A DNA stretch of 22,369 nt. Source: a virus (taxonomy: Duplodnaviria > Heunggongvirae > Uroviricota > Caudoviricetes). A program made the translations under genes and the position numbers. Positions within the stretch are counted from its first letter, which is position 1, and every line of letters begins with the position of its first letter. Below the pieces are notes generated by a model. That model searched no databases. It was not told where the DNA came from and saw nothing but the letters and a program-made list of their open reading frames with translations. The stretch is from positions 1 through 22,369 of IMG/VR virus record IMGVR_UViG_647533160_000004. One strand, 5' to 3'. Shown one piece after another: positions 5,271-22,369 of this stretch.

Positions 5271-5648
5271 TTACGCAGGTAGGTAAAGATATGATTGTGG
5301 TGGCTTAATATTACTACCTAGAGCAGAGATAGGAATTGGTTCTTTATATCTTTCCACTTCACCAATTTTTATTGCGTAGGCCTTTTCTCTACCTGAATAA
5401 TATGAGTCATAAAATTGCTTAGAAATACCTGCGTGTTTTTCCGTCTTTTTCCAAAGAGATTCCGGTTCGTCACTTAGTATTGATTCAATACGGAATTGAC
5501 CAACAACTTTACCTAATGGCATCGTGGCATAAATAACAACGGTGCTAATTTGCGGATTTTTGAATATACCTTTACGAAACTCGAACCGCTTTGTTCCGTT
5601 CAATATTTTTTCTGCAAACTCAGGCTTAATGGATAATAAAACTTTCAT
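5271..5648 (-). CDS. ASCH-domain protein (PUA-like fold), 125 aa
   Basis: N-terminal MKVLLSIKPEFAEKILNGTKRFEFRKG carries the ASCH signature G-x-K-x-x-E-x-R. AT-rich; overlaps the upstream gene by 23 nt, suggesting translational coupling. Confidence 0.7.
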   Translation of the reverse strand: MKVLLSIKPEFAEKILNGTKRFEFRKGIFKNPQISTVVIYATMPLGKVVGQFRIESILSDEPESLWKKTEKHAGISKQFYDSYYSGREKAYAIKIGEVERYKEPIPISALGSNIKPPQSYLYLPA

Positions 5649-6699: not shown

Positions 6700-6767
6700 T
6701 CTAAAATGAATAATTAAGTTGTTTTACTGAATGAGCACAATGCCCGGTTGATAATTTTTAATTGGTA

Positions 6768-7460: not shown

Positions 7461-7570
7461 AAGTTTTAATTTATACGCTTGCGTATTGATGGTCAAAACA
7501 CGTTTTGCTATTGTTATGGTTAATACGCATTGCTATTATTTATTCATTGTAATACCAATAGGAATTAATA
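7461..7570. promoter_or_regulatory. Right operator/promoter region (oR, pR/pRM-like) between cI and cro
   Basis: Perfect inverted repeat ATACGC-tt-GCGTAT (7473..7486), related TAATACGCATTGCTATTA (7521..7538), and TTGCTATTG (7504..7515) in the 110-bp divergent intergenic region. Confidence 0.5.
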
Positions 7571-7798
7571 ATGACAAATCAAACCATTCAACTCGCAATC
7601 AGTATTACAGGTAGTCAAAAACGACTGGCAGATCTATGCGGTGTAGCCCAGCCCACTGTTTGGCGTTGGCTACACGGTGGCGGAATTGATGCCCGCTATG
7701 TAATGAAAATTGTCTCAGCCACTGGTGGAAAGATTAAACCAGCAGATATTCGTCCCGACCTCGCACCATTGTTTAACGCGAGTAATTCTGCCGCCTAA
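7571..7798 (+). CDS. cro: Cro-like HTH regulator (75 aa)
   Basis: Small ORF divergent from cI; HTH-like segment ...QKRLADLCGVAQPTVWRWLHGG...; AGGA about 8 nt upstream of the ATG. Confidence 0.75.
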   Translation: MTNQTIQLAISITGSQKRLADLCGVAQPTVWRWLHGGGIDARYVMKIVSATGGKIKPADIRPDLAPLFNASNSAA

Positions 7799-7822
7799 TC
7801 TGCGGCGTTAACTGATAAGGCA

Positions 7823-8368
7823 ATGACTATGCAACCACTTACATACCAACAGACTAGCGGATTTAGCCCGACTGCGGTGATAAATCGTTCTCAAACAAAA
7901 CAGGCGCCAGGCCACGAAAAAATCCGTGATGCCGTTCGCGCCTGGTCGGCTGCAGATAATCAGGATGTTGTTGCCGCACTCATTGTGAATGAGTATCGGG
8001 AGCAGGGCGGCGGCACCATCGATTTCCCTGATGATGTCAGCCGTGCACGCCAGAAGCTGTTCCGCTTCCTCGATAACAAATTCGATTCTGAAAAATACCG
8101 AAATAACGTGCGTGAACTGACCCCGGCAATTCTGGCGGTACTACCGCTGGAATATCGCGGCCACCTGGTTGAGCAGGATAGCTTCATGGCTCGGCTGGCT
8201 GAAATGGAAAAGGAACTCAGTGAGGCAAAACAGGCTGTCATTCTCAACGCACCACGCCACCAGAAACTGAAGGAGATGAGTGAAGGCATTGTGTCGATGT
8301 TTCGTGTGGACCCGGATCTGGCTGGTCCACTGATGGCGATGGTCACCACCATGCTGGGGGCAATATGA
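7823..8368 (+). CDS. Hypothetical early-right protein in the cII position (181 aa)
   Basis: ORF between cro and O on the same strand; no recognised catalytic motif. Functional role inferred from position only. Confidence 0.5.
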   Translation: MTMQPLTYQQTSGFSPTAVINRSQTKQAPGHEKIRDAVRAWSAADNQDVVAALIVNEYREQGGGTIDFPDDVSRARQKLFRFLDNKFDSEKYRNNVRELTPAILAVLPLEYRGHLVEQDSFMARLAEMEKELSEAKQAVILNAPRHQKLKEMSEGIVSMFRVDPDLAGPLMAMVTTMLGAI

Positions 8369-8454
8369 CAGGTTCGGAAATGGCGAAAGCCGGTCTGCGC
8401 GAACAGAACCGACTTTCAGGTGCAAATCGTAACACACTCATTGCGGGAGGAATT

Positions 8455-9384
8455 ATGGCAAACACTGCTGAGATATTCAATTTTCCAGTGCCGGATGTGG
8501 CACAAAAGGAGCCGCGCGTGGCAGATCTCGATGATGGTTATACGCGCATTGCAAATGAGTTGCTGGAAGCTGTGATGCTGGCCGGATTAACACAGCACCA
8601 GCTTCTGGTCTTCCTGGCTGTCATGCGCAAAACATATGGCTTTAATAAAAAACTGGATTGGGTGAGCAACGAGCAACTTTCCGAGTTGACCGGGATATTG
8701 CCGCACAAGTGTTCTGCTGCAAAAAGCGTTCTGGTAAAGCGTGGGATTCTTATTCAGAGCGGGCGAAATATCGGCATTAATAATGTGGTCAGTGAATGGT
8801 CAACATTACCCGAATCAGGTAAGAAAAATAAAGTTTACCTGAAAGAGGTAAATTTACCTGAATCAGGTAAGAAAAGTTTACCCAAATCAGGTAAAGGCGT
8901 TTACCCGAATCAGGTAAACACAAAAGACAAACTAACAAAAGACAATATAAAACCTTTTTCGTCCGAGAATTCTGGCGAATCCTCTGACCAACCAGAAAAC
9001 GATCTTCCTGTGGTGAAACCGGATGCTGCAATTCAGAGCGGCAGCAGGTGGGGGACAGCAGAAGACCTGACCGCCGCAGAGTGGATGTTTGACATGGTGA
9101 AGACCATCGCGCCATCAGCCAGAAAACCGAATTTTGCAGGGTGGGCTAACGATATCCGCCTGATGCGTGAACGTGACGGACGTAACCACCGCGACATGTG
9201 CGTGCTGTTCCGCTGGGCATGCCAGGACAACTTCTGGTCCGGTAACGTGCTAAGTCCGGCCAAACTTCGCGACAAGTGGACCCAACTCGAAATCAACCGT
9301 AACAAGCAACAGGCTGGCGTGACAGCCGGAAAATCAAAACTCGACCTGACAAACACTGACTGGATTTATGGGGTGGATTTGTGA
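8455..9384 (+). CDS. O: Replication initiator O-like protein with embedded ori iterons (309 aa from ATG at 8455; track ORF begins at 8365)
   Basis: GGAGG 4 nt upstream of ATG 8455; the iteron array followed by an AT-rich tract lies inside the coding region as in lambda O; immediately followed by P. The coding sequence across the iterons is a repeated ...LPESGKK... segment. Confidence 0.85.
   Translation: MANTAEIFNFPVPDVAQKEPRVADLDDGYTRIANELLEAVMLAGLTQHQLLVFLAVMRKTYGFNKKLDWVSNEQLSELTGILPHKCSAAKSVLVKRGILIQSGRNIGINNVVSEWSTLPESGKKNKVYLKEVNLPESGKKSLPKSGKGVYPNQVNTKDKLTKDNIKPFSSENSGESSDQPENDLPVVKPDAAIQSGSRWGTAEDLTAAEWMFDMVKTIAPSARKPNFAGWANDIRLMRERDGRNHRDMCVLFRWACQDNFWSGNVLSPAKLRDKWTQLEINRNKQQAGVTAGKSKLDLTNTDWIYGVDL
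8806..8917. repeat. Origin of replication iterons: five copies of an about 17-bp palindromic TTACCYGAATCAGGTAA unit
   Basis: Copies at 8806..8822, 8835..8851 (degenerate), 8854..8870, 8878..8894 and 8901..8917, followed by the AT-rich stretch acacaaaagacaaactaacaaaagacaatataaaacc. Confidence 0.85.
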
Positions 9385-10082
9385 AAAACATCGCCGCACA
9401 GATGGTTAACTTTGACCGTGAGCAGATGCGTCGGATCGCCAACAACATGCCGGAACAGTACGACGAAAAGCCGCAGGTACAGCAGGTAGCGCAGATCATC
9501 AACGGTGTGTTCAGCCAGTTACTGGCAACTTTCCCGGCGAGCCTGGCTAACCGGGACCAGAACGAACTGAACGAAATCCGCCGCCAGTGGGTGCTGGCTT
9601 TCCGGGAAAATGGGATCACCACAATGGAACAGGTTAACGCAGGAATGCGCGTAGCCCGTCGGCAGAATCGACCATTCCTGCCATCTCCCGGGCAGTTTGT
9701 TGCCTGGTGCCGGGAAGAAACATCCGTTACCGCCGGGCTGCCAAACGCCAGCGAGCTGGTTGATATGGTTTACGAGTATTGCCGGAAGCGTGGCCTGTAT
9801 CCGGACGCAGAGTCTTATCCATGGAAATCAAACGCGCACTACTGGTTGGTTACCAACCTGTACCAGAACATGCGGGCCAATGCGTTGACTGACGCGGAAT
9901 TACGGCGCAAGGCTGCCGATGAACTGGCCTGTATGACCGCGCGAATTAACCGTGGTGAGGCTATACCTGAACCAGTAAAACAACTTCCTGTCATGGGCGG
10001 TAGACCTCTAAATCGTGCACAGGCTCTGGCGAAGATCGCAGAAATCAAAGCTAAGTTCGGACTGAAAGGAGCAACTGTATGA
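9381..10082 (+). CDS. P: Replication protein P (DnaB helicase loader), 233 aa
   Basis: Translation MKNIAAQMVNFDREQMRRIANNMPEQYDEKPQVQQVAQIINGVFSQLLATFPASLANRDQNE... is near-identical to lambda P as I recall it; GTG start overlapping the O stop. Confidence 0.95.
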   Translation: MKNIAAQMVNFDREQMRRIANNMPEQYDEKPQVQQVAQIINGVFSQLLATFPASLANRDQNELNEIRRQWVLAFRENGITTMEQVNAGMRVARRQNRPFLPSPGQFVAWCREETSVTAGLPNASELVDMVYEYCRKRGLYPDAESYPWKSNAHYWLVTNLYQNMRANALTDAELRRKAADELACMTARINRGEAIPEPVKQLPVMGGRPLNRAQALAKIAEIKAKFGLKGATV

Positions 10083-10366
10083 CGGGCAAAGAGGCAATTA
10101 TTCATTACCTGGGGATGCATAAGAGCTTCTGTGCGCAGGACGTTGCTGCGGTAACAGGCGCAACAGTAACCAGCATAAATCAGACTGCGGCTAAAATGGC
10201 GCGGGCAGGAATCTTAGTCATTGATGGTAAGGTCTGGCGAACGGTGTATTACCGGTTCACTACCAGAGAAGAACGGGAAGGAAAGGTGAGCACGAATCTG
10301 ATTTTCAAGGAGTGTCGCCAGAGTGCCGCGATGAAGCGGGTGTTGGCTTTATATGGAAGAGAGTAG
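10079..10366 (+). CDS. ren: Ren protein (95 aa)
   Basis: Translation MTGKEAIIHYLGMHKSFCAQDVAAVTGATVTSINQTAAKMARAG... closely matches lambda Ren as I recall it; overlaps the P stop by 4 nt. Confidence 0.9.
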   Translation: MTGKEAIIHYLGMHKSFCAQDVAAVTGATVTSINQTAAKMARAGILVIDGKVWRTVYYRFTTREEREGKVSTNLIFKECRQSAAMKRVLALYGRE

Positions 10367-10430
10367 GTATGAGCAATTATTGTTACTAATTTTAGTTTTA
10401 CGACATTCGTGATAACTAAATAATTGATGT

Positions 10431-10697
10431 GTGGAACTGAATTATAAAGGGGATGATGTTTTGGGAAATAAAGAAAATATCGATTGTCAGCATACAAGAA
10501 GCTCATGCTATAAAAATAAGCAGATTAGGGTAAGTATGAAAGATGTTATTTATATTACATTGCCTAAACTCACTGAAGAAGAAGTAGAGATTTTTAAGGG
10601 ACCAATGCATAAAGCATTGCTTGTAGGGATAAATGTTACAAAAAAGGCAGTTTCTGATGCCCTGCTAAACAAAGGGATAAAAGTTGAATTTAAATAG
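10431..10697 (+). CDS. Small hypothetical protein in AT-rich cargo (88 aa from GTG; alternative ATG at 10536 gives 53 aa)
   Basis: ORF convergent with the 472-aa gene, in an AT-rich segment after ren; no recognisable motif. Coding status is uncertain. Confidence 0.3.
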   Translation: MELNYKGDDVLGNKENIDCQHTRSSCYKNKQIRVSMKDVIYITLPKLTEEEVEIFKGPMHKALLVGINVTKKAVSDALLNKGIKVEFK

Positions 10698-10713
10698 AGT
10701 AATTCAGTGGCAA

Positions 10714-10741
10714 CAATAGCACTCATTTGTGAGTGCTATTG
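10714..10741. terminator. Perfect 12-bp stem hairpin between convergent genes (putative bidirectional terminator)
   Basis: CAATAGCACTCA-tttg-TGAGTGCTATTG lies between the stop at 10695..10697 (+) and the stop at 10749..10751 (-). Flanking T-tracts are weak. Confidence 0.45.
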
Positions 10742-10748
10742 AAATTTA

Positions 10749-12167
10749 TTAGAAAATAATGTTTGCTATATCCGAGATAGCATTTAAAGAACCTCTGTGG
10801 TCACTTCCTGTTTTAGGTAAAATATAGGAATATCGAGGGTCTTCATTATATGTTAACTTCCAGTGTTTTCCATCGCTTGACGCACTAAAACCTAAGTCCT
10901 TTAAACTTCTTTGTGTTGCGCTATCCATGCTTCTGTACCCTGTTAAAGTCCTTTTAAGTAATTGGCGGCGACTCTCGGTTTCTTTATTGTATTTATTATT
11001 GGCAATTAGGGATGATAAGATATGATAGCTTCTACCAAATTCATTTTTGTTTTTTATGGCAGTTTTTAGTGCGTCAATAATTATATTTTTGATTTCTCCA
11101 TCAAAAAAGTCAGTCTCTTCACCTGCATTAAGCACAATGCTTCCTTGGGCTGAAGCTTGTGATTGAAGAGTGCGTACTCTGTGCTCTAAAGCGGAGATCT
11201 TATGCTTAAGATCTTCTATTTGGTCATCTTTCGCAACATTATCGGCTTCGTAAAGCGCCATCAGTTCGCGTGTGTATTCTCCTCTTTCTTTGAGTGAGTT
11301 AATAGAATCTTTCGTTTTTCTGGTTTGTATCTCACTCCATCCACTATCTGAGACAGGAGCCATTGTAGTCGTAGCTCTTACAACATCATCAAATAACTCA
11401 TCTTCAAATTCTTTTGCGGTTTTCTCACCACGGCGATAAAAACTGATATTTTGACCTCGTGGCCAATAGATACCAACAGCACCAGCATAGGCATTTTTAG
11501 CATTTGTCTCATTTTTTAGCTTAATAGAAAATAGTCTATTGCTAGGCTCAATTAATACATGTGCTAATCCGCATACCTTTCTTGCAAGGCGTTCTGGGAT
11601 GATATTGTGAGCATGTTCATTGAAAAAATACTTGGAGCTAACGTATATTATTGGTAGTCTGTTGTCAGTTTCACCATTTATAACTTTAGCTGCTATATTT
11701 AAATGTTCATCAGTATCATCTAAGGAATGAGGTTCGACTGACACCTTGAAAATATCATCAAGACCACCAGAAAATTTATCAATCAATCTCATAACAACCA
11801 ATGGTTTCTTGGGTTGTGGGGCTAGATAAGCTGCATCTTGGCTTACAACGCTAGATTCCACCTGAATCCACATGGTATCAGTTTTGAGATTTTTATTAAT
11901 TGAAATATCTGTTACCCATTTGTGTGGCTCAGATATTTTCGAATACCTAAAACAGCCTAAACTAGTATCTTTGTTTTTATAAGTTATTATATCAATTCTT
12001 TCATTTTTAGACTCTATGAAGTGCTCCTCGCTTTTATAATCACATACTAATTGTGCTGGAATAAAAGTTGTATGTGGTGAGTCGTTTACCCAAGAAAAAC
12101 ATTCATTAAAGATCTCAGCTAGAGATGTGGAATTTGAAACATAAAAACCAGTTGAGAAATATTTCAT
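10749..12167 (-). CDS. Orphan 472-aa cargo protein, predicted cytoplasmic, with a C-terminal coiled-coil-like region; function unknown
   Basis: Long uninterrupted AT-rich ORF; AAGGA Shine-Dalgarno 6 nt upstream of the ATG at 12165..12167. No Walker or obvious nuclease motifs by eye. Heptad-like charged region ...EDLKHKISALEHRVRTLQSQ... Inserted between ren and the NinB-like ORF. Confidence 0.7.
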   Translation of the reverse strand: MKYFSTGFYVSNSTSLAEIFNECFSWVNDSPHTTFIPAQLVCDYKSEEHFIESKNERIDIITYKNKDTSLGCFRYSKISEPHKWVTDISINKNLKTDTMWIQVESSVVSQDAAYLAPQPKKPLVVMRLIDKFSGGLDDIFKVSVEPHSLDDTDEHLNIAAKVINGETDNRLPIIYVSSKYFFNEHAHNIIPERLARKVCGLAHVLIEPSNRLFSIKLKNETNAKNAYAGAVGIYWPRGQNISFYRRGEKTAKEFEDELFDDVVRATTTMAPVSDSGWSEIQTRKTKDSINSLKERGEYTRELMALYEADNVAKDDQIEDLKHKISALEHRVRTLQSQASAQGSIVLNAGEETDFFDGEIKNIIIDALKTAIKNKNEFGRSYHILSSLIANNKYNKETESRRQLLKRTLTGYRSMDSATQRSLKDLGFSASSDGKHWKLTYNEDPRYSYILPKTGSDHRGSLNAISDIANIIF

Positions 12168-12184
12168 GAAATTTCCTTATTGAT

Positions 12185-12202
12185 AATGAGATTAATCTCA
12201 TT
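12185..12202. promoter_or_regulatory. Perfect 18-bp palindrome AATGAGATTAATCTCATT upstream of the 472-aa gene (candidate operator or 5' UTR hairpin)
   Basis: Perfect 9+9 inverted repeat beginning 18 nt upstream of the start codon, directly 5' of the ribosome-binding site. Confidence 0.45.
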
Positions 12203-12441
12203 GGGTATGATAATTGTTACCCTCCTTTGGATCTAGTGTTCATTTGACATAAAAACCAATTGATTCATCATAATCAACCCGCCATAATCATGTCATCGGA
12301 GCCTGAACAACTCCGGTGACTTCTGCGCTAAACGGGGACGTTTATGCGCACACACAATCCAAACTCTCTTCTCCCTCCACAGATGCAGAAATGCACCTGC
12401 GATTTTTTGCATCCAGCGTTTGGCCTCTGCGGAGGTGAATC

Positions 12442-12795
<354 letters not shown>

Positions 12796-12871
12796 AGAGG
12801 GAAAAGAAACAACTTACGTATATTCTACGTATTCTTCAGGCGCACCACGCTTACAGGTTTCCAAATCTGGT

Positions 12872-14269
12872 TTGTGGGGTTGTCATAATGGCACTGGCTG
12901 GTTGCCATTAGCTGTTGGGCAAGGAGGTACAGGTGCGACAACAGTAGAAGATGCGCGAAACAACTTAAGTCTTGGCGAAAGTAGCGCAGTTAAATTTAAA
13001 AACCTTACTTTAACCGAAGCGCTCGACGTGACATTAGGACTGCTTACAAAAACAGGACGAGACTGGAACACGCAGCATACTGATAACATTAATAAATTTA
13101 TACCAATTGCAGGCAGTACAAACGGCCCGGCAGGTTCTATGGTTCTTGGCGGCATTCATGTTCAATTTAGTAAAAATTATGCTGTGCAGTTCGGAGGCCG
13201 CAATTCCGGTTTTTGGGGAAGAACAATTGAAAATGGAACGACGCAGGAATGGAAGAAATTACTAACAGTAGACGATCTCAATTCATCTACCGATCTTGCT
13301 GTCAGGTCATTAACCACATCTAACCCGGTAAAATCTGGCGGAGGGCGAATTGATGTCCTTGGAAGCACGTCAGACTATAGCAAAATGGATTGCTTTGTAC
13401 GTGGGTTTGATAGCACCGGTAATTCTCTCGTGTGGGCGTTGGGTTCATCAGTCGGCGTAAGTAAGATGCTATCGCTAAAAAATTTCTTTAGCGGAGCTGA
13501 GATACTGTTAAATGGTAATGACGGCGCGGTTCAACTCAAAACAGGTGCTGTTAACGGGGCTACAGCGCAGACGCTCACTATCAACAAGAATGAGGTTAAC
13601 TCAACCGTTGATTTAACCCTTACAAAGCAATCAGGGACTGGTAATCGTTTTGTTTTACAGAACTCAGGTAATGCAGAACTACCGTTTTCTGTCAGGGGGT
13701 GGGGTTCCAGTACTCGACAAAACGTTTTTGAGGTTGGAACGTCTGCTGCGTATCTGTTTTATGCGCAAAAAACGTCAGCAGGCCAGTTGTTTGATGTAAA
13801 TGGCGCTATTAATTGCACAACGCTGAATCAGTCATCAGACCGCGACCTTAAAGACGATATTCTCGTTATCAGCGACGCGACGAAAGCAATCCGTAAAATG
13901 AACGGATACACCTACACGCTCAAGGAAAACGGGATGCCTTATGCTGGCGTTATTGCACAGGAAGTAATGGAGGCGATACCAGAAGCTGTGGGATCGTTTA
14001 CTCATTATGGTGAAGAGTTGCAAGGTCCGACCGTTGACGGCAACGAGCTACGCGAAGAAACTCGCTATCTTAATGTTGACTACTCCGCCGTGACGGGTTT
14101 ACTTGTTCAGGTCGCCCGTGAAACAGATGATCGCGTTACCGCGCTGGAAGAGGAAAACACAACGCTACGTCAAAATCTGGCAACAGCAGGCACCCGGATC
14201 AGCACTCTGGAAAATCAGGTAAGCGAACTGGTTGCACTTGTCCGGCAGTTAACAGGAAGCGAACATTGA
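12872..14269 (+). CDS. stf: Side tail fibre protein, C-terminal portion with a self-cleaving intramolecular chaperone domain (465 aa; N-terminus lost, TTG start in track)
   Basis: Gly/Thr/Ser/Asn-rich fibre-like sequence (...GQGGTGATTVEDARNNLSLG...). C-terminal domain from 13832 has the chaperone-of-endosialidase pattern SDRDLKDD...GYTYTLKENGMPYAGVIAQEVMEAIPEAV...YLNVDYSAVTGLLVQVARE..., recognised from memory of that family. The frame is open upstream without an ATG. Confidence 0.8.
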   Translation: MWGCHNGTGWLPLAVGQGGTGATTVEDARNNLSLGESSAVKFKNLTLTEALDVTLGLLTKTGRDWNTQHTDNINKFIPIAGSTNGPAGSMVLGGIHVQFSKNYAVQFGGRNSGFWGRTIENGTTQEWKKLLTVDDLNSSTDLAVRSLTTSNPVKSGGGRIDVLGSTSDYSKMDCFVRGFDSTGNSLVWALGSSVGVSKMLSLKNFFSGAEILLNGNDGAVQLKTGAVNGATAQTLTINKNEVNSTVDLTLTKQSGTGNRFVLQNSGNAELPFSVRGWGSSTRQNVFEVGTSAAYLFYAQKTSAGQLFDVNGAINCTTLNQSSDRDLKDDILVISDATKAIRKMNGYTYTLKENGMPYAGVIAQEVMEAIPEAVGSFTHYGEELQGPTVDGNELREETRYLNVDYSAVTGLLVQVARETDDRVTALEEENTTLRQNLATAGTRISTLENQVSELVALVRQLTGSEH

Positions 14270-14308
14270 TATCCTTCAAGCCCTGAAGGAGGCTGTTCCT
14301 GGTACGTT

Positions 14309-14440
14309 CAGACTGTTGCTGAGCTGGAGATCGCAACGGAGGAAGAGAAAGCGTTTCTGGCCGCATGGAAAACATATCGGGTATTGCTGAACCGTGTTGA
14401 TACAGTAAACCCCGTCTGGCCTCCACCTTCGAAGCGATAG
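14309..14440 (+). pseudogene. tfa: Remnant of the 3' end of a tail fibre assembly gene (tfa)
   Basis: Translation ...[40 protein letters not shown]... resembles the lambda Tfa C-terminal motif (...[30 protein letters not shown]...). No start codon or N-terminal part is present. Confidence 0.6.
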
Positions 14441-14744
14441 CCCAGCAACTCCTAAATAGCTGCGCATAATACCGCTACACCTGCCGTTTTACTGACATTT
14501 GGAATATTGCGTGAGGGCAACATATCGAGGGGCAGATATAGCTCGGTCAAATAGAAAAACAGCCCCACTATTTACCATGCAATAGCTGGTCAAAAGGAGA
14601 GCACTATTCCGCTCCGCGTAGTATTTTGTGTTTATAGTGATAACTTAGGTAATGCTTAGTCACTAAGATACTTTGCTATTGGAGAGCGATTTATAATGTG
14701 GGCGCAACAGATTTTTACTATTGCGCCACTTGCTCTTGTGAGTA

Positions 14745-15833
14745 CTATTCGCTATAAGTTAATGTTGGTTTTGAAAGTCTTTTGGATATTGTTTTTCCGA
14801 TATTAATGAATGGAGTTTCAATATATTTATAAATAAAGAATGATAAGAACAAGCTAAGAGCAATAATGAATGAAAACTTAGAGAACCCAGGTTTTTCATA
14901 AAGCGGAATGAAATCCTTAAAATTAATTAAAAATAGCATTACTATCGCATGGGATAAATACAGAGAGTAAGAGATATCACCTAGCTTACTGAGTATTTTA
15001 TTTTCCCTTAATCCGAAGTTAACTTCATAAAGTAAAACTCCCGTAATTATGGAGGCTGCCCACAATCCGAAGTTTAAAGGGCCATGACCAAATCTGAATT
15101 GATAAAAATATGAGCAAACACCAAATGAAACCAAAAGGAATGATATCGCCTTTGCGTTTTTTATATATTTAAATTTTCTGTGTATTATATACAGAAACAT
15201 CCCATAAACGAATTCTAACAGCATGGGTGATGACATTAAGTTTAGAAAGCCAATATGCCAATGACCTGTATCACCAATCGTAAACTTACTTGATAGAGAA
15301 AGGCTGTTGGAAAATTTCAACTGTATGAGAAGTAGCGGGACTATCAATGCAATAACTGATATTAATAATCTGTTTTTATGGCTCAGCGATATTGCAAGCA
15401 TAAAAATGAAATAAAAATAGACTTCAAAGGTTAATGTCCATGCTGGATAAAGCACGTTGTATCCGAAGAATGGCGCTTCTGAATAATAGTCCAGGTGAAG
15501 CAGAAACAATGAACGCAATAATTCACTTTCGGTGAAGACTGGGTTCAATAAAAAGAATAAGATTGTGCAAATGAAAAATACAGGGTAAATCCTGAAAAAA
15601 CGCCTGGTCATAAAGTTAATAGGGGAATTTGTTTCTTTTTTTTGACTCGATAACATTATTATAAATCCACTTATAATAAAAAACAGATCAACCCCAAAAC
15701 CACCACTAATAAACAATAAATCACCTAGATCTTTTTGTGCGTAAACTTCATTTAGGTATTGTTTATTGTGATATGCAACAACGAGTAATGCTGCTACACC
15801 TCGCAAATAGTGAATTGATTTTACCTTCTTCAT
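14745..15833 (-). CDS. Acyltransferase-3 family integral membrane protein (OafA/Oac-like), putative O-antigen/LPS acetyltransferase (362 aa)
   Basis: Very AT-rich, highly hydrophobic ORF with about 10 predicted transmembrane segments and N-terminal ...YLRGVAALLVVAYH...GVDLFFIISGFII... typical of acyltransferase family 3. Confidence 0.8.
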   Translation of the reverse strand: MKKVKSIHYLRGVAALLVVAYHNKQYLNEVYAQKDLGDLLFISGGFGVDLFFIISGFIIMLSSQKKETNSPINFMTRRFFRIYPVFFICTILFFLLNPVFTESELLRSLFLLHLDYYSEAPFFGYNVLYPAWTLTFEVYFYFIFMLAISLSHKNRLLISVIALIVPLLLIQLKFSNSLSLSSKFTIGDTGHWHIGFLNLMSSPMLLEFVYGMFLYIIHRKFKYIKNAKAISFLLVSFGVCSYFYQFRFGHGPLNFGLWAASIITGVLLYEVNFGLRENKILSKLGDISYSLYLSHAIVMLFLINFKDFIPLYEKPGFSKFSFIIALSLFLSFFIYKYIETPFINIGKTISKRLSKPTLTYSE

Positions 15834-16048
15834 TTTTATATAATCACTGTTCCAATTTTTTTTATTTTACAAACAATTCTATCTAGCTCATTAGTACTCA
15901 AAGTCAGATTGGTAGCAACAAAAAAACAAGATATGTGATGACATGGCGCGGGGCTCAGAACCACTCGTGTATTTTCGCCACTGGCTATGACTGGCTGCAC
16001 CTGCAAGATCTGCCATTTGTGTGCCAGTATACCCAAGCTCTGACTTTA

Positions 16049-16548
16049 TGTTTACCAGATCCTCTGGAGTGCCGGGGAGTATAATCGTTGATTAATCGAA
16101 TCTGCAACTATTTCAGAACGACCTAGGTTAAAGTGCGCTCTGCAGTCTCTTATATAAGGTGATACTTTAATTGTCTGGAAACTGGACAGGTTAGGAAGGA
16201 GCAGGAAACATCTTATTATACTTACCGAGTAGCTGCGGGTAAGGGGGGGATTTCCGTAGCCTGACAGGTAACATTGACACGTCAACATCGATGGTTTTTT
16301 TTATTTTTCCATGTGATGGAGCCCTGGTTGAAATGAAGCGTGAACTGATTGATGACTGAACAAAAGTTGGACTGGAAGATGCTCGCGCACAGGGAGGAAT
16401 TGGTGGACGTCGTCCTAAACTTACATCAGAACAATGGGCGCAGGCCGGGCGATTAATTGCATCAAAAGTCCCGCGTCAGAAGGTGGCGATCATCTATGAT
16501 ATTGGTGTATCGACTTTATATAAGAGGTTTCCAGCCAGGATTATATAA
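16049..16548 (+). pseudogene. pin: Decayed serine DNA invertase gene (Pin/Gin/Hin family) with frameshifts and in-frame stops
   Basis: Fragments in shifting frames: ...VWKLDRLGRS..., ...ALVEMKRELIDD(stop)TKVGLEDARAQGGIGGRRPKLTSEQWAQAGRLIASKVPRQKVAIIYDIGVSTLYKRFPA... The C-terminal HTH is intact; the catalytic N-terminal half is disrupted. Confidence 0.7.
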
Positions 16549-16658
16549 AACTGCAGACACGCCGTATGCAAGACGTGCTGCGGTTGGCTGATGCACTTTC
16601 GAGAGTGTATGTATTGAATAATTTCCAACCGTCATTAATTTTATTTATTTTTTGCATG

Positions 16659-16678
16659 AGAGGATTTGAACCTCCGAG
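16659..16678 (-). other. tRNA T-arm-like fragment (GGAGG-TTCAAAT-CCTCT) without acceptor stem or CCA
   Basis: Minus-strand ctcggaGGTTCAAATCCtct matches the T-stem/loop consensus. No complete cloverleaf could be built from the flanking sequence. Confidence 0.25.
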
Positions 16679-16871
16679 CCTCGACACCTTATGACAACGC
16701 GATATTCCCTTGATGACCGCTATGCGCCAAAATAACCAATTGATAAATAAGTTGATTTTAATTAGTTGGAAGCAAGTCAGGTCAAATTCAGCATGCCGCT
16801 CTCTGTATCGGGTAGTTAAATTTTTCTATAACTGATAGTAATATGTTAAAACTCACACAGATAAATTATCA

Positions 16872-18854
16872 TTGCTCAACAAGTATAATGGAGTTCCCGT
16901 GGATACAGCAGAACATGATGGCAAATTTGCTTGGGCTAGTTTTTATGAGGCTTTTGCCAACGCGTTACTGACTTGGCGAAATCGTAGAGATGAATTAGTC
17001 AAAGGTATTCATCTAATTGCCTCAGGTGTGGAAGGAATGTCCCATCTGCAGGACAAATCTATTATGGGAGAGATCTTTCCCTTAAAAGACATTTGTCCGT
17101 TTACTACTATGGGCTTGTTCAATCGTAACTTGACCGATAGCAATCGCAAAATTATTGCTGCCAAGCTAGCGAATTTGTTGGGCGTGAACGAACCGATTCC
17201 TGACTCCTTTGCCGGAATCCCGCTGTTGAATAACCAAAAATCTTGGTTCTTTGGTTATGAAAAGTCACGCGACCCTAATGACATTGAATGCTTGTGGGAA
17301 ATGTTCTCGCAGGCAATGACCTTTGCGGATAACCAGAATACTAACTCTGCAGACTTCACTGCCGCATATGACATTGCTTCTACAGTAATGAATGTCGGTT
17401 GGAATCTCACCATGGGGTTGTACTGGACCCGTCCTTGGTTCTACCCTACTTTAGATAGCCAGTCGCAGTATTACATTCAGACAGTGTTAAACATTAAGAT
17501 CATTAAAAACGGGGCAAAAGGTCGCTGTAGTGGACAAAGTTACCTGAGTCTTATGCGGGCGCTGAACGAGGTCTTTACCCAACCAAACTATCCGGTTCAT
17601 TCTTTCCCAGAACTTTCTTTATCAGCGTGGAATACAGATCTTAGCCAGTCTAAAGATGAGGTGGCAAATAGAACGTGGAAAGCCTCTTTACTGAATAAAA
17701 TTAAGGCGTTATGCCTGAAAAAAAATGGCCCTTATTTCACTGCTTCGGAGTTGGAAGAAAACTACTTGGACGTATTCAAGGTAGAGCATCCTGAGAGCAA
17801 AACAGTTACAAGCTCAATCTACTTTTATCTACAGAAACTATGCAATGATGATGAGTTAAAGTCCCTTGAGTCCGGAAATTATGAATACCTGAATTTTGAG
17901 AAAAACGAATCCCAGACGATAACTGAGGAAACTGTCGAAGAGAGTGCGCCGTTGCCAAAACTCACTCACGTTCCTTATGACATCAGTCATCTGGTGCAGG
18001 ATGGCTGTTTCTTGGAAGAGGCTAAGATCCAACTCACACTTCAGCGCCTGATCGACAAGAAAAACCTGATATTACAAGGACCACCCGGAACTGGAAAAAC
18101 CTGGTTAGCGCGACGTCTGGCGTACTGCTTGATGGGAGAAAAAGCACCTGAGCGTATTAGCGCGGTGCAATTTCACCCGAACCTCTCTTACGAAGACTTT
18201 ATTCGCGGCTGGCGTCCAGGTAAAGAAGGGCAATTGACGCTAATTGATGGACCTTTTGTAAATGCAATCAAAACTGCAGTCAATAATCCTACCTCGAAAT
18301 ATGTGGTGATAATTGAAGAGATTAATCGTGGCAATCCGGCGCAAATCTTCGGTGAAACACTCACGTTGATGGAAGCAGATAAACGCACGCCGACTGAGGC
18401 ATTATCTCTTTCCTATCCTAAAAATGATGATGAAAAAATATACATTCCTGAGAATCTATATATCATCGGTACGATGAATATTGCAGACCGCTCACTCGCA
18501 CTACTTGACCTAGCGCTGCGCCGTCGTTTCGCGTTTATCGATCTAAAGCCAGCTTTTAATGACGCGTGGAGAAACTGGGTAAATTATAATTACGCAATTG
18601 ATTTTGACATGTTAGCATTCATCAAATCTCGACTGACGGTACTTAACGATATGCTGGCAAAAGATGTTACCTTAGGACCACAGTTTTGTATCGGTCACAG
18701 CTATGTCACCCCAGCTATCGGCCAAAAAATCAACGATGCCCAGGCTTGGTATGAACAAGTCGTTGATACAGAGATCTGCCCTTTGCTCGCCGAATATTGG
18801 TTCGATGCTCCAAATAAAGTCGATGAAGCCAGAAAAGTGTTATTAGCAAAATGA
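16872..18854 (+). CDS. McrB-like AAA+ GTPase with a long (~390 aa) unassigned N-terminal region (660 aa; alternative GTG start at 16899)
   Basis: C-terminal module has Walker A LQGPPGTGKTW, Walker B VVIIEEINRG and the McrB-type motif IGTMNIADRS. The N-terminal ~390 aa show no motif I can assign. GGAG lies 5 nt upstream of the GTG at 16899. Confidence 0.85.
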   Translation: MLNKYNGVPVDTAEHDGKFAWASFYEAFANALLTWRNRRDELVKGIHLIASGVEGMSHLQDKSIMGEIFPLKDICPFTTMGLFNRNLTDSNRKIIAAKLANLLGVNEPIPDSFAGIPLLNNQKSWFFGYEKSRDPNDIECLWEMFSQAMTFADNQNTNSADFTAAYDIASTVMNVGWNLTMGLYWTRPWFYPTLDSQSQYYIQTVLNIKIIKNGAKGRCSGQSYLSLMRALNEVFTQPNYPVHSFPELSLSAWNTDLSQSKDEVANRTWKASLLNKIKALCLKKNGPYFTASELEENYLDVFKVEHPESKTVTSSIYFYLQKLCNDDELKSLESGNYEYLNFEKNESQTITEETVEESAPLPKLTHVPYDISHLVQDGCFLEEAKIQLTLQRLIDKKNLILQGPPGTGKTWLARRLAYCLMGEKAPERISAVQFHPNLSYEDFIRGWRPGKEGQLTLIDGPFVNAIKTAVNNPTSKYVVIIEEINRGNPAQIFGETLTLMEADKRTPTEALSLSYPKNDDEKIYIPENLYIIGTMNIADRSLALLDLALRRRFAFIDLKPAFNDAWRNWVNYNYAIDFDMLAFIKSRLTVLNDMLAKDVTLGPQFCIGHSYVTPAIGQKINDAQAWYEQVVDTEICPLLAEYWFDAPNKVDEARKVLLAK

Positions 18855-19972
18855 CGACAATAACCGGGAGTGAGCAACATACAGCATCACGTATTCCCAT
18901 GCGAAATATCTGGATGCTGATGCTGTACGCTTCAGATCTGTTTCGTCAGTTAGGGCGCAATCAGATCGCAGTAGAAGATAACCCAGCAGAAATCCCCGAC
19001 CTGGTGGCGACAATCCTCCTTCATGAGATTACGCTGCGCCGACGTCGCAATTTAAATATGGGATACCAAACTTGTCATGCGGCCCTGAACCGGGTGAGAG
19101 GGCGCATTGACATACTGTATACTGCCAGTCATCAACTACTGGAACGGGGACAGGTTGCCTGCCATTTTCAAGACATAACCCTCAACACCCCCCGAAATCG
19201 CTATGTTCGCTGTGCGTTAGAACGTCTGGCCTCAATCATAGTGAAACCGTCTTTGGCGGCAGATTGCCATTTTATGGCAATATCACTTCGCCGTGAGGGG
19301 ATAAATGGAGGATATCCTGCCCCCCACGAATTACCCTCAGTGTGGCGTTTTGGACGCCATGATGCCGCAGATAAACCGATGGTCGATGCCGCACGATTAG
19401 CTTTTGAACTGCTGATGCCGACCGAAGATCAAGGCCAATATCTTTTACCTGCGCCCTCAAATAACCTTTACTGGATGAGAAGACTATTTGAAAAAGGTAT
19501 CGCTGGCTTATATCGTGTACACCTTGCCAAAACAACTTGGCAGGTCTCTGCAGGGAAAGAGCTGAAATGGGCGTTGAGCGATCAAAGTGCAGGTAGTGCA
19601 GAGATTTTCCCGACAATGAAGTCAGACATTATTCTGGAACACAAGACTGCCCAGCGGCGTATTATTATCGATACCAAATTTAATTCGATTCTGACAAAGG
19701 GTTGGCATCGGGAGCAATCACTACGTAATGGCTATATTTATCAGCTATATACCTACCTTAGAACACAGGAGAACAAGACGGATCCGCTTTCGCTCAATGC
19801 CGCTGGTCTTCTACTTCATCCAGCTGTTGGCTATATGCTTAATGAGTATGTTGTCACTCAGGGACATAAGATCCATTTTGCTACAGTAGATATGACGGTA
19901 GATGCTAAAGCAATTAAAAAACAATTGCTGGCAATAGCCCATGATTGTGCAGGAGTCGCGGTTGATGACTAA
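18851..19972 (+). CDS. McrC-like endonuclease subunit (PD-(D/E)xK), 373 aa
   Basis: Start overlaps the McrB-like stop (ATGA, 18851..18854). C-terminal ...KSDIILEHK...RRIIIDTKF... fits a PD-(D/E)xK nuclease core; size and pairing are as in McrBC systems. Confidence 0.8.
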   Translation: MTTITGSEQHTASRIPMRNIWMLMLYASDLFRQLGRNQIAVEDNPAEIPDLVATILLHEITLRRRRNLNMGYQTCHAALNRVRGRIDILYTASHQLLERGQVACHFQDITLNTPRNRYVRCALERLASIIVKPSLAADCHFMAISLRREGINGGYPAPHELPSVWRFGRHDAADKPMVDAARLAFELLMPTEDQGQYLLPAPSNNLYWMRRLFEKGIAGLYRVHLAKTTWQVSAGKELKWALSDQSAGSAEIFPTMKSDIILEHKTAQRRIIIDTKFNSILTKGWHREQSLRNGYIYQLYTYLRTQENKTDPLSLNAAGLLLHPAVGYMLNEYVVTQGHKIHFATVDMTVDAKAIKKQLLAIAHDCAGVAVDD

Positions 19973-20451
19973 CCATCCTATAAGGCACTGGCTGTAATAT
20001 AATCAATAGTTTCAATTAAGTAGCTGTTATCCGTGCTTAGTCATCATATGACGCACCACGGTCTAATTTTCCTGCTCATACATTGATATATCCTTGTCAA
20101 GTCCGAAAAGTCGCAGTCCACTATTAGGTATACCGATTGCCAGCACCAAAAGCTTCTTTGTGATTATTATATCGGGGAATGCCTATTTTTTAGTGACAAT
20201 ATCAGATAGCAATTAATAAGCGGTGCCGGTAATGGATGTTATGTTTAATGTATAGACACAGCCATCATAAACTAAACGTCTGTTGTTCGCTCATAACCGA
20301 CATTTATCTCAGTTATGGAAGATAATTATGTATGCAGATAATGGGGCAGACAGTCGTGGAGTAAACAAGGTTTTGCACTGCTTGGCGGCATCGTTATCTT
20401 ATTTTTAATTATGTGCCTCTTAACATAAGTTGGGACAAAACAGAGACACAT

Positions 20452-20482
20452 AAGGTCTCACAAAGGTCTGCAAGGCCTCACA
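20452..20482. repeat. Three tandem about 10-bp direct repeats (AAGGTCTCACA / AAGGTCTGCA / AAGGCCTCACA), candidate integrase arm-type sites
   Basis: Contiguous direct repeats in the AT-rich non-coding stretch about 200 bp inside the prophage from the icd-fragment junction. Confidence 0.3.
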
Positions 20483-20674
20483 TGTATTGAGATGTTAATA
20501 AAATGTAGACTTGTAATTTGGATATAAATGGTAGAGAAAACCTTTCCCCAAAATAAAAACGAACGTCAATGAAATCAAACGGTTGAATAAAGTTGATTTT
20601 GGCTAATAAAAAAACAATAAAATAATTTTTATCATTAAATATCAATGACTTGAACTTAATGTTTTTATATACTG

Positions 20675-20836
20675 TTACGCCATATGGGCTGGACTGAAGC
20701 CGCAGACTTGATTGTTAAAGGTATGGAAGGCGCAATCAATGCGAAGACCGTAACCTATGACTTCGAACGTCTGATGGAAGGTGCTAAACTGCTGAAATGC
20801 AGCGAGTTTGGTGATGCGATCATCAAGAACATGTAA
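20675..20836 (+). pseudogene. icdC: Displaced 3' fragment of isocitrate dehydrogenase gene (icd', last about 53 codons), marking the right prophage junction
   Basis: In-frame translation ...[53 protein letters not shown](stop) matches the Icd C-terminus as I recall it. No start codon; the frame has a stop just upstream at 20657..20659. Confidence 0.85.
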
Positions 20837-20859
20837 TCTCTACATGTGTTAAATATTGA

Positions 20860-20891
20860 AACGGGCGTATAACACGCCCGTTGTTTTATTT
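20860..20891 (+). terminator. Rho-independent terminator following the icd fragment
   Basis: AACGGGCGT-ataac-ACGCCCGTT hairpin (9-bp stem) followed by GTTTTATTT, 24 nt after the icd stop codon. Confidence 0.8.
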
Positions 20892-20938
20892 ATGTGGATA
20901 TTATTAATAGCATGTCGAGCATATTTATATGAAGCCCA

Positions 20939-21262
20939 TTACTTGAGTCCATATAGGCATATTTTTATAATGCAACTATTATGCAAACATTTATTTGTTA
21001 TTTCGCTTTCTCCTGGAGGACACTCTTGACTGCTTTTGAGTAAAATCCATAAATCCTTGTTGAATGGTGTGATGTTATAAATAGTAATAGGGTATTCTTT
21101 ATCCTTAAGGATAATACCAGACTTAACCGGTGTAAATATACTTCCAGGAGGGAGAAATATAGTAGATTGATACCAGATGATCATTTTCATATCACCCCAT
21201 ATGGCTGAAAAAGATATGCCGCATGTAGGTTGAATTACCGTGTCAATTACTATCCACTTCAT
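20939..21262 (-). CDS. iraM: Anti-adaptor protein IraM (RpoS stabiliser), 107 aa
   Basis: Translation [43 protein letters not shown]... matches IraM in length and, as I recall it, in sequence; AT-rich gene with a long AT-rich upstream region. Confidence 0.8.
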
Positions 21263-21726
21263 TTGTTATGTCTTATCCCACGGTGTTTAATATAGTTCAT
21301 TTGGATGTTCATTTCTTGATTTTGCATATGTGTATATTACTCCCCAAAAAATAAATTAATTAAAAATTAATGTCATTACCTATATAAAACAAAATTTAAA
21401 GCAAGGAATCTCAATAGAGATTAAACAAAATGAGATTTAGTGAAAGCATTAAATTATTCACTTCGTTTTAGATTTGTTTAGCTAAAATGTTATACATTCA
21501 AATGACTGAACATTCTGTAATTAAAACATAGCCTTTATGCTATTTTGTGCCAATTTGCAAAACATTATGGTTGGCCTTTTAATATAACGATAATGATGAA
21601 TATAAGCATGACCTGAGAATAAGGTTTCAATTTTTGAGTTATATAGGAATGGTTAAACCTGTTCCTGACTAAAATATATATAATCAGATGATGACTAAAC
21701 CAAAACACATGTGCGTTAAGTATTGA

Positions 21727-21757
21727 AACGGGCGTATGGCACGCCCGTTGGTTTTAT
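21727..21757. terminator. Second copy of the icd-terminator-like hairpin (AACGGGCGT-atggc-ACGCCCGTT + GGTTTTAT)
   Basis: Near-duplicate of the hairpin at 20860..20891 including about 20 nt of shared upstream flank (acatgtg..ttaa.tattgaa); lies between iraM and ycgX. Confidence 0.5.
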
Positions 21758-21964
21758 AAATTTGTTAACCGTTATAAAATAACGTATAGAAAGTCAAGTG
21801 ATCACATTTCAAATATCAATTTGATAGTATTGGCCTGGTGATTATTTATGGGTGGCAATAAAAAGATAGTATTTATCATCCATAGGGATAGTCTCTGCAC
21901 TTTTATTTCCATTATGCTAATGTCTTACTGAATTATGAAGCATTTCTTAAGCTTCCAACTCTAG

Positions 21965-22369
21965 CTAGATTAATGGTTTATTGTTTTCTACATCTTCAAT
22001 ATATAAAAGCGTATTATCAATGGCGTAGTAACTGCGTTTGTTATGATTAACATCAGTAACCCACCGGAAAACGCCCGCGCCTGCCAGTGTTGAACAGTAT
22101 TCCCGAAATGTTGATTTTCCGCAAATATGAAGCAATGCGGCCTCTTTTATTTTAGCAGGGTTCTTGGTCGTACTAACTTTTAACAGGTTCCTGGTTCCTC
22201 TTAATAACAAAACCGTGTCATCGTGAGTAATAATTCTGATGTTATCCGTAGCCAGATAATAAATGTAATGTGCAATACGGTGATGTTTTAATTCTGAATA
22301 AAACCAGGAGAAGTTTTGCTCTTTTCTCACTTGCTCAAACATCTTTTGAAAAACAACAACCTGATCCAT
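21965..22369 (-). CDS. ycgX: Hypothetical protein, likely YcgX homolog (134 aa); start codon at the window edge
   Basis: Complete ORF ending the window (ATG at 22367..22369). Its size and position after iraM match my memory of the K-12 gene order; the sequence itself was not compared. Confidence 0.5.
   Translation of the reverse strand: MDQVVVFQKMFEQVRKEQNFSWFYSELKHHRIAHYIYYLATDNIRIITHDDTVLLLRGTRNLLKVSTTKNPAKIKEAALLHICGKSTFREYCSTLAGAGVFRWVTDVNHNKRSYYAIDNTLLYIEDVENNKPLI

What the first reader, a model, noticed from the sequence alone, without database searches (positions are those of the whole stretch)
20843..21757. iraM is bracketed by two copies of an about 45-bp icd-terminator segment
The segment acatgtg-ttaa-tattgaaACGGGCGTat..cACGCCCGTTg-ttttat occurs after the icd fragment (20843..20889) and again at 21707..21757, with a few substitutions and indels. 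Between the copies lies an AT-rich block containing iraM and its long upstream region. A target-site-like duplication of the icd terminator flanking an AT-rich gene suggests iraM was itself inserted at the icd 3' end by an older site-specific event, making this locus a repeated integration hotspot.
Basis: seen in the sequence. Interest (0 to 1): 0.5.

Follow-up and report, generated by a model that had tools for sequence, protein, structure and literature searches.

The report
Fossil phage attachment repeats around iraM
The stress-regulator gene iraM of E. coli sits between two copies of the end of the neighbouring icd gene, a scar most likely left when an ancient phage-like element inserted at a site that phages still use; some strains later lost iraM by deletion between the two copies.

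Summary
The repeat is real. Copy 1 is 20842-20889 (48 nt) and copy 2 is 21707-21757 (51 nt). They share 45 identical positions, with 3 substitutions and 2 indels, in direct orientation 867 bp apart; none is expected by chance. The similarity is not confined to the hairpin.

Copy 1 is the working icd terminator. Its right edge (20889) is exactly where the icd-like segment of phage 21-type phages stops matching the chromosome. Copy 2 is a decaying relic of an earlier icd 3' end. In a rare, deeply diverged haplotype (19 genomes) the orthologous copy still starts with ATCAAGAATATGTTAA, the last four icd codons plus stop. A degraded e14-type phage arm follows it.

IraM and YcgX both belong to phage protein families. 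IraM homologues sit next to stx genes in Stx prophages.

Of 5,426 complete E. coli genomes, 3,843 carry iraM with both copies. 1,036 (including strains 536 and ST131) lack exactly one repeat unit plus iraM and keep one hybrid copy. Flank phylogeny indicates these are secondary deletions, not pre-insertion sites.

This is an att-type duplication, not a transposon target-site duplication. It is an ordinary kind of feature, apparently not described before for iraM.

The parts
1..20668 (.). Defective phage 21/lambda-like prophage integrated in icd. The integrase is at 1-1143 (minus strand) and a McrBC-like pair at 16872-19972. attL lies just outside the window.
   Evidence: Pfam: Arm-DNA-bind_1 plus Phage_integrase, AAA_5, McrBC. 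RefSeq annotation of the source strain VCSW7. attL/attR alignment.
20669..20836 (+). icd' pseudogene: the displaced 3' end of icd at the prophage attR. The att homology with the phage-borne copy runs from about 20672 to 20889.
   Evidence: The homology with phage 21-type phages ends at 20889.
20842..20889 (+). Copy 1: the icd terminator module (stem 20860-20882, loop ATAAC, T tract). It is the terminator of icd in prophage-free strains and lies convergent with iraM.
   Evidence: It is identical in type to the icd terminator of prophage-free E. coli, other Escherichia and Citrobacter.
20890..20938 (.). Left end of the iraM block. It resembles neither of the two P' arm types tested, and the query reaching 20930 matched no phage record beyond 20889.
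20939..21262 (-). iraM (anti-adaptor of RssB), a member of a phage-borne protein family.
   Evidence: NF007393. phrog_4407, E 1e-49. Homologues of 56-72% identity lie in Stx/lambdoid prophage late regions.
21263..21706 (-). AT-rich iraM upstream region (23-29% GC). It includes the 14-codon ymgK-like ORF at 21521-21565.
   Evidence: It is homologous at 72% to the upstream region of the diverged type 2 haplotype.
21707..21757 (+). Copy 2: a relic of an earlier icd 3' end/terminator (stem 21727-21749, loop ATGGC).
   Evidence: The orthologue in AST85 and MFDS1022581 begins with ATCAAGAATATGTTAA. The stem is damaged in K-12 and S. flexneri.
21758..21795 (+). Decayed e14-type P' arm (TGTTAACCGTTATAAAAT...), found at the same distance from the terminator as in e14 attL.
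   Evidence: local alignment p=0.0025 for the iraM-less site and p=0.0175 for this window's copy 2, at the same offset. (74-75 nt at 77-78% to phage-type attL sequences).
21802..21912 (-). ymgL small ORF.
   Evidence: RefSeq annotation mapped.
21965..22369 (-). ycgX (DUF1398), also a phage moron family.
   Evidence: PF07166. phrog_413. A homologue lies between Nu1 and the lysis genes in an E. albertii prophage.

Best explanation
The two copies are successive versions of the icd 3' end/terminator module, which is the segment that icd-integrating lambdoid phages (phage 21, e14 and relatives) carry in their attP and duplicate on integration. I call this the stacked-integration model.

1. An older e14-like element integrated in icd and decayed. 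It left the terminator plus a P' arm fossil in front of ymgL-ycgX.
2. A second phage-like element carrying iraM as cargo then integrated in icd. It supplied a new 3' end and terminator (the line of descent of copy 1). It pushed the resident 3' end and terminator to its far side, where it became copy 2.
3. Deletions then removed everything except iraM and its upstream region. They also removed nearly all of the displaced icd' fragment: 15 nt of coding sequence survive in one haplotype and none in this window.
4. iraM was domesticated.
5. Copy 1 stays conserved because it terminates icd and is repeatedly overwritten by phage copies. Copy 2 drifts.
6. The roughly 50-bp repeats later allowed a precise 867-bp deletion of iraM in the lineage that includes strains 536 and ST131.
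7. The same site is still used. In this window a 21-like prophage has displaced icd' plus copy 1 to its attR.

Shown here: the repeat, its boundaries, the presence/absence polymorphism, the icd codons in the diverged copy 2, and the phage affiliation of IraM and YcgX.

Inferred: the integrase-mediated step, the order of the events, and which copy came from the phage.
For: - The repeat is real and non-random.
- Of 5,426 complete genomes, 3,843 have the full iraM block. 1,036 have a junction that lacks exactly 867 bp and keeps one hybrid copy.
- iraM is present with both copies in a prophage-free strain, so it is not part of e14.
- Phage-chromosome homology ends at 20889, the right edge of copy 1, in 26 of the 28 phage records matched, phage 21 among them. 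It also ends there in strain 105 attL and in this strain's own attL.
- Copy 2' of the diverged haplotype aligns to icd from ATCAAGAATATG through the terminator. The match is 70 nt, includes 12 contiguous exact coding bases in register, and occurs in two genomes.
- It shares the derived G of TTAAGT with this window's copy 2, so the two are orthologous.
- The right flank of copy 2 resembles the e14 P' arm at the same offset.
- IraM homologues lie between Q/stx and nanS-p in Stx and other lambdoid prophages. 45 phage records match only at 60-80% identity; the listed rows, mostly Stx2-converting phages, match the iraM ORF at about 72% nt. IraM matches phrog_4407.
- YcgX homologues lie between Nu1 and the lysis genes.
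- The chromosomal order and strands, icd(+), iraM(-), ycgX(-), are collinear with a lambdoid prophage integrated at icd.
- The type 2 haplotype adds a third layer between icd and iraM: terminator, intact e14 P' arm and trkG.
- The iraM-less flank is 3.8-4.1% from iraM+ flanks but 18-19% from type 2, which also has iraM and copy 2. That implies loss rather than primary absence.
Against: - No integrase, excisionase or other phage gene remnant survives between the copies.
- No icd similarity is left upstream of copy 2 in this window.
- The 49 bp right of copy 1 match no known P' arm.
- In known phages iraM-like genes sit in the late region, far from att. At least two deletions are therefore needed, one of them ending close to the terminator.
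- The iraM upstream region has no phage match.
- The P' arm similarity is short (about 30 nt, p=0.0025).
- The outgroup status of the type 2 haplotype rests on local sequence only, and recombination could blur it.
- The phylogroups of the 1,036 iraM-less genomes were identified only from a few strain names.
Confidence: 0.7

Rival explanations
1. Recent insertion. The iraM-less single-copy arrangement (strains 536, ST131 and others) is the ancestral empty site, and the 867-bp unit was inserted later in the other E. coli lineages.
For: The single copy is of the universal ATAAC type and has the spacing of copy 2 on its right side. It therefore looks like an intact attB. IraM-like proteins returned by the search carry only E. 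coli names.
Against: A haplotype that is 18-28% diverged over iraM, its upstream region and ymgL-ycgX has the same architecture, including an orthologous copy 2. The iraM-less flank groups with the common iraM+ type at 3.8-4.1%. Independent insertions at the same base with the same flanks are implausible. A second iraM-less junction occurs in a different flank background (L004), which fits recurrent loss.
Confidence: 0.1
2. Non-phage origin. The icd terminator region was duplicated locally (by slippage or unequal exchange), or iraM was captured by illegitimate or homology-assisted recombination, with no site-specific integrase involved.
For: No integrase or arm-site remnant lies inside the block. 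The left flank of copy 2 and the right flank of copy 1 have no phage match. An IS3-like fragment abuts copy 2' in the type 2 haplotype, which shows that IS-driven rearrangement occurred here.
Against: The repeat ends exactly where the phage att homology ends. The cargo is a phage family. The locus demonstrably receives icd-targeting prophages again and again. A P' arm fossil follows copy 2.
Confidence: 0.17
3. Copy 2 is simply the native terminator of the ycgX-ymgL transcript and resembles the icd terminator by convergence.
For: Copy 2 lies downstream of ymgL/ycgX on the minus strand, and the hairpin also folds on that strand. In iraM-less genomes the single hairpin sits between the convergent icd and ymgL.
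Against: Identity extends 20 nt 5' and 8 nt 3' of the stem and, in the type 2 haplotype, into icd coding sequence. iraM-less genomes have one copy, not two. The minus-strand tail is not T-rich enough for the terminator scan. The stem is broken in K-12 and S. flexneri.
Confidence: 0.03

Closest known systems
icd / icdC duplication made by e14 and phage 21 integration (Hill, Gray & Brody 1989, as cited in PMC13626634)
   Same: It uses the same target (the 3' end of icd) and duplicates the same module (icd 3' end plus terminator). The right boundary is identical, at ...GTTGTTTTAT. Cargo genes sit next to the att site.
   Different: The modern duplication is about 218 bp long, includes about 165 bp of icd coding sequence, and flanks a recognisable prophage with an integrase. 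Here only 48-51 nt remain (up to about 70 nt in the type 2 haplotype). No recombinase survives and the insert is reduced to one domesticated gene.
Direct repeats of tRNA or tmRNA gene 3' ends flanking degraded genomic islands, and tandem accretion of elements at one attB (cis-mobilizable element remnants)
   Same: An imperfect direct repeat of the 3' end of the target gene bounds a remnant that has lost its integrase. Several elements are stacked at one site. The repeats mediate precise loss.
   Different: The target is a protein-coding gene's 3' end and its terminator, not a tRNA gene. Mobilisation of the remnant by a resident integrase is unlikely. The differences between this strain's attL and attR start about 35 bp into the 218-bp homology, so the crossover probably lies at its far 5' end, a part that copy 2 lacks.
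Phage morons (for example stx, bor, lom and the iraM-like genes of Stx phages)
   Same: iraM is a small, AT-rich, independently transcribed gene. It lies on the strand opposite to the icd gene next to it, as its phage homologues lie opposite the adjacent late genes, and it is bounded by a terminator.
   Different: The chromosomal iraM is fixed in most E. coli. Its integration into host PhoP and H-NS regulation is taken from the literature and was not tested here.

Membership tests
attL/attR repeats of an icd-integrating lambdoid element | Direct repeats derived from the 3' end of the target gene icd | tested here: met
   Both copies match the icd terminator module. The orthologous copy 2' retains the last four icd codons plus the stop codon.
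attL/attR repeats of an icd-integrating lambdoid element | The repeat boundary coincides with the limit of phage-host homology | tested here: met
   The homology ends at 20889 in 26 of the 28 phage records matched and in two attL junctions.
attL/attR repeats of an icd-integrating lambdoid element | Integrase/excisionase genes or arm-type sites between the repeats | tested here: not met
   Only iraM and a 14-codon ORF lie between the copies. The flank of copy 1 matches no P' arm.
attL/attR repeats of an icd-integrating lambdoid element | The distal copy carries the full displaced icd' fragment (about 165 bp) | tested here: not met
   There are 0 nt of icd coding sequence before copy 2 in the window and 15 nt in the type 2 haplotype.
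attL/attR repeats of an icd-integrating lambdoid element | DNA between the repeats is of phage origin | tested here: met
   IraM matches phrog_4407 at 1e-49. Homologues lie in Stx/lambdoid prophages.
attL/attR repeats of an icd-integrating lambdoid element | Integrase-mediated excision or integration at these repeats | not testable with these tools
   Only a natural precise 867-bp loss is seen. That is equally compatible with homologous recombination.
Intrinsic (Rho-independent) terminator | G+C-rich hairpin followed by a T tract | tested here: met
   Both copies are called on the + strand. MFE is -18.4 and -16.8 kcal/mol.
Intrinsic (Rho-independent) terminator | The hairpin is conserved by selection (copy 2) | tested here: not met
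   The K-12 copy 2 has an A.G mismatch and the S. flexneri copy a C.A mismatch in the stem. No + strand gene reads into copy 2.
Transposon target-site duplication | Short exact duplication flanking an element with terminal inverted repeats and a transposase | tested here: not met
   The repeat is 48-51 nt and imperfect. No terminal inverted repeats or transposase were found.

The most novel reading that the evidence does not exclude
The region downstream of icd is a layered record of successive phage integrations. Under this reading not only iraM but also ymgL-ycgX, and possibly the adjoining bluR-bluF-ycgZ-ymgA-ariR stress/biofilm module, entered Escherichia as prophage cargo at this one site. 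They were then domesticated, each layer still marked by a fossil terminator or arm sequence. A general-stress regulator of E. coli would then be a direct by-product of attachment-site reuse.
Probability: 0.3. Interest if true: 0.5.

Novelty: new member of a known kind. Interest (0 to 1): 0.33.

Why it matters
- It corrects how iraM is placed. The literature puts iraM "on the e14 prophage" (PMC4045071). In fact it lies outside e14's attR and is present in prophage-free strains.
- It gives a concrete origin for a well-studied RpoS regulator: a phage cargo gene captured at the icd hotspot.
- It explains the known patchy distribution of iraM by a simple repeat-mediated deletion.
- The repeats predict that iraM can be lost again spontaneously.
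- The kind of feature (fossil att repeats around a degraded element) is familiar, so the wider significance is modest.

Tried and rejected
- Residual icd similarity upstream of copy 2 in the window: none.
- Phage matches for the iraM upstream region, or for the 49 bp right of copy 1: none. Only the iraM ORF and the icd/terminator module match.
- Outgroup state from the genome contigs pattern scan. E. albertii, E. whittamii and two unnamed Escherichia species gave only the icd-proximal terminator followed by phage arm or other DNA, so the far side could not be read.
- YcgX homologues of other species turned out to be paralogous loci. One lies in a prophage late region in E. albertii and one at a flagellar-region locus in Escherichia sp. 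E10V10.
- Placing the window's strain by mnmA-purB identity was not decisive. It is 97.3-98.5% identical to nearly all genomes.
- The autotransporter neighbour gave no usable phylogroup marker.
- The accession for UMN026 is not in the collection.
- The Hill 1989 and Brody 1988 papers and the supplementary strain tables of PMC4045071 are not held.
- The 254-bp spacer before copy 2' in the type 2 haplotype has no phage match and only 80 nt at 76% to an IS3 transposase gene.
- Literature searches found no description of the duplication.
- Pfam at E<=0.001 gave no hit for IraM, although precomputed tables list PF11183/PmrD.

Full report
**Context**

The window is the right-hand part of a defective phage 21/lambda-like prophage integrated in icd of E. 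coli strain VCSW7 (99.9% match; annotation).
- The integrase is at 1-1143 on the minus strand.
- The prophage ends at about 20668.
- Next comes the displaced icd' pseudogene (20669-20836) and its terminator.
- Then come iraM (20939-21262, minus; NF007393), a 444-bp AT-rich upstream region, the second terminator-like segment, ymgL (21802-21912, minus) and ycgX (21965-22369, minus; DUF1398).

- Copy 1 is 20842-20889 (48 nt) and copy 2 is 21707-21757 (51 nt).
- They share 45 identical positions. The differences are three substitutions (TTAAAT>TTAAGT; loop ATAAC>ATGGC) and two indels (CG after ACATGTG; G after CGTTG).
- The 30-nt core is found twice in 22 kb at up to 3 mismatches, with zero hits in 100 shuffles.
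- The identity covers 18-20 nt upstream of the 9-bp stem and 7-8 nt downstream, so it is not a hairpin-only resemblance.
- Both copies are called as + strand intrinsic terminators.
- The block between them has 23-36% GC.

**Presence/absence polymorphism**

I searched 5,426 complete E. coli genomes.
- 3,843 cover at least 80% of 20660-22369, so they have iraM and both copies.
- A second class spans 843 bp instead of 1,710, which is a loss of exactly 867 bp, the repeat spacing.
- A junction query counts 1,036 genomes of that second class. They include strains 536, an O25b:H4-ST131 strain and an APEC O2:K1:H5 strain.
- These genomes carry a single hybrid copy. Its left part is copy 1-like and its right flank is that of copy 2.
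- This holds whether or not a prophage occupies icd.
- A prophage-free strain, MINF_9A, has icd, copy 1, iraM, copy 2 and ycgX. iraM is therefore not part of e14, contrary to the wording in PMC4045071.

**What the repeated module is**

- The icd terminator with its short upstream spacer is conserved in Citrobacter and in other Escherichia species.
- Phage 21 and 27 other lambdoid phage records carry the icd 3' end plus this terminator. In 26 of the 28, the match to the window stops at 20889, the last base of copy 1.
- The same boundary is seen in the attL of strain 105 and in the attL of the window's own strain. There the att homology runs from about 20672 to 20889.
- At this one nucleotide three sequences diverge: phage DNA, the iraM block, and the ymgL-ycgX flank of iraM-less strains.
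- The flank to the right of copy 2, and of the single copy in iraM-less strains, resembles the e14 P' arm. The motif is TG(T/C)TAAC(C/G)GTTAT(C)AAAAT...TATCAAAA, at the same distance from the stem (local alignment p=0.0025 for the iraM-less site, p=0.0175 for this window's copy 2). The e14 attL of K-12 was read.
- The ymgL-ycgX side therefore begins with a fossil attL of an e14-like element.

**The decisive comparison: a diverged haplotype**

- A rare haplotype occurs in 19 complete genomes. I call it type 2 and the common form type 1.
- In AST85 and MFDS1022581 the order is: icd, terminator, well-preserved e14 P' arm, a 455-aa gene, a transposase fragment, trkG, a different terminator, iraM (80% nt identity), a ymgB-like gene, the iraM upstream region (72%), a 254-bp spacer, copy 2', ymgL and ycgX (about 80% nt across the ymgL-ycgX stretch).
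- Copy 2' aligns with icd over 70 nt. The alignment starts with ATCAAGAATATGTTAA, the codons Ile-Lys-Asn-Met plus stop, and 12 contiguous exact bases are in register with the terminator homology.
- Copy 2' shares the derived G of TTAAGT with the window's copy 2, and both of its flanks are homologous. It is therefore the same relic.
- Copy 2 thus descends from an icd 3' end, not merely from a similar hairpin.
- In the window's haplotype the deletion went a few bases further, and nothing of icd remains upstream of copy 2.
- A subtype represented by L096 has lost copy 2' and ymgL altogether.

**Direction of the polymorphism**

- Over ymgL-ycgX the iraM-less flank is 3.8-4.1% from iraM+ type 1 flanks. 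Type 1 flanks differ by 1.5-3.3% among themselves.
- The iraM-less flank is 18-19% from type 2 over the same stretch.
- Types 1 and 2 both have iraM and copy 2, and the iraM block has diverged in step with the flank (20-28%). The architecture therefore predates their split.
- The iraM-less state is best read as a later deletion across the repeats.
- Copy 2' still has the ATAAC loop and a T after CGTTG. At the time of the deletion the two copies probably shared about 30 identical bases.
- A further iraM-less junction, carrying two IS200C copies, sits in a different flank background (L004). This hints at recurrent loss.
- The 5' 1,080 nt of AST85's icd is 3.1-4.0% from other E. coli, as far as the named cryptic Escherichia species are. 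Over bluR-bluF the type 2 genomes are only 2.4-4.7% away. The outgroup argument is therefore local to this segment.

**Origin of the cargo**

- IraM matches phrog_4407 over its full length (1e-49).
- Homologues of 56-72% identity lie in lambdoid prophage late regions, on the strand opposite the late genes. They sit between Q or stx2AB and nanS-p.
- 45 phage records match only at 60-80% identity. The listed rows, mostly Stx2-converting phages, match the iraM ORF at about 72% nt, and some records annotate the gene as iraM.
- Another homologue sits in an IS21-containing island.
- YcgX matches phrog_413. A 70% homologue lies between Nu1 and the lysis genes of an E. albertii prophage.
- The chromosomal order and strands, icd(+), iraM(-), ycgX(-), match those expected for a lambdoid prophage integrated at icd.

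**Present function of the copies**

- Copy 1 is the icd terminator and faces the 3' end of iraM.
- It is nearly invariant between strains. K-12 differs at one base.
- Copy 2 lies between ymgL/ycgX and the iraM upstream region, all of which are read on the minus strand. It could limit read-through into iraM.
- However, its minus-strand tail is weak.
- Its stem carries an A.G mismatch in K-12 and a C.A mismatch in S. flexneri.
- I therefore regard copy 2 as a decaying relic.

**Conclusion**

- It is a fossil attachment-site duplication at a known phage hotspot.
- It bounds a one-gene remnant of phage cargo, and it is old.
- The repeats have since mediated loss of iraM in about a fifth of sequenced strains.
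- I found no paper that describes it.
- The kind of structure is well known.
- The integrase-mediated step and the order of the layers are inferences.

Noticed in passing
window 16872-19972: The prophage carries a McrBC-like pair next to its attR: a 660-aa AAA_5 ATPase and a 373-aa McrC-family protein. This is the position that mcrA occupies in K-12 e14. A different defence or cargo gene sits at the same att-proximal slot in different icd prophages.
   Followed up: partly
L004 (NZ_CP195459.1) 4540-4600 and 5990-6010: Strain 22AR0747 lacks iraM. It has two IS200C copies inserted right after the terminator T tract. Its terminator loop is flipped (GTTAT instead of ATAAC) while the stem is unchanged.
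   Followed up: partly
L085/L037 (K-12-type) copy 2; L010 (S. flexneri) copy 2: In K-12 both partners of one stem base pair of copy 2 have changed (G-C to A.G), which is not compensatory. S. flexneri has a C.A mismatch. Copy 1 is intact in the same genomes.
   Followed up: yes
L097 (AST85) and L098 (MFDS1022581), between icd and ycgX: A rare haplotype in 19 genomes has trkG and a 455-aa gene of unknown family behind an intact e14-type P' arm. It also has an extra YmgB/AriR-family gene between iraM and its upstream region. ycgX-to-iraM is 14-28% diverged, while the neighbouring bluR-bluF is only 2.4-4.7% diverged. That suggests an introgressed or very old allele.
   Followed up: partly
L079-L082 (Stx prophage contigs) about 3200-3540; phage records LC567834 and others: An IraM homologue of 68% identity lies immediately next to stx2AB in Stx2 prophages, on the opposite strand. 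Whether it stabilises RpoS in STEC was not examined.
   Followed up: no
L097 reverse strand 13063-13260 (spacer before copy 2'): The 254-bp spacer that abuts the truncated icd remnant has 80 nt at 76% identity to an IS3-family transposase gene. An IS-mediated deletion may have removed the rest of the displaced icd' fragment.
   Followed up: partly
L066 (E. whittamii) and L051 (Escherichia sp. E1V33), downstream of icd: In these species the icd terminator is followed by a different short arm-like sequence (...TTAGCACGTCAATAGTTATCAAAAC...). YebC-like and YkgJ-like genes come next, and ycgX or iraM is absent from the roughly 2 kb of downstream sequence held for each. The icd downstream region differs between Escherichia species.
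   Followed up: no
window 20667-20698 and 21186-21217: A 32-nt inverted repeat with 72% complementarity links the att core region (CCATATGGGCTGGACTGAA) and the inside of iraM. I judged it a chance match in AT-rich sequence.
   Followed up: no
Pfam hmmscan at E<=0.001 gave no family for IraM. The precomputed tables list PF11183 (PmrD) for all IraM homologues. A distant IraM-PmrD relationship may exist but was not tested.
   Followed up: no
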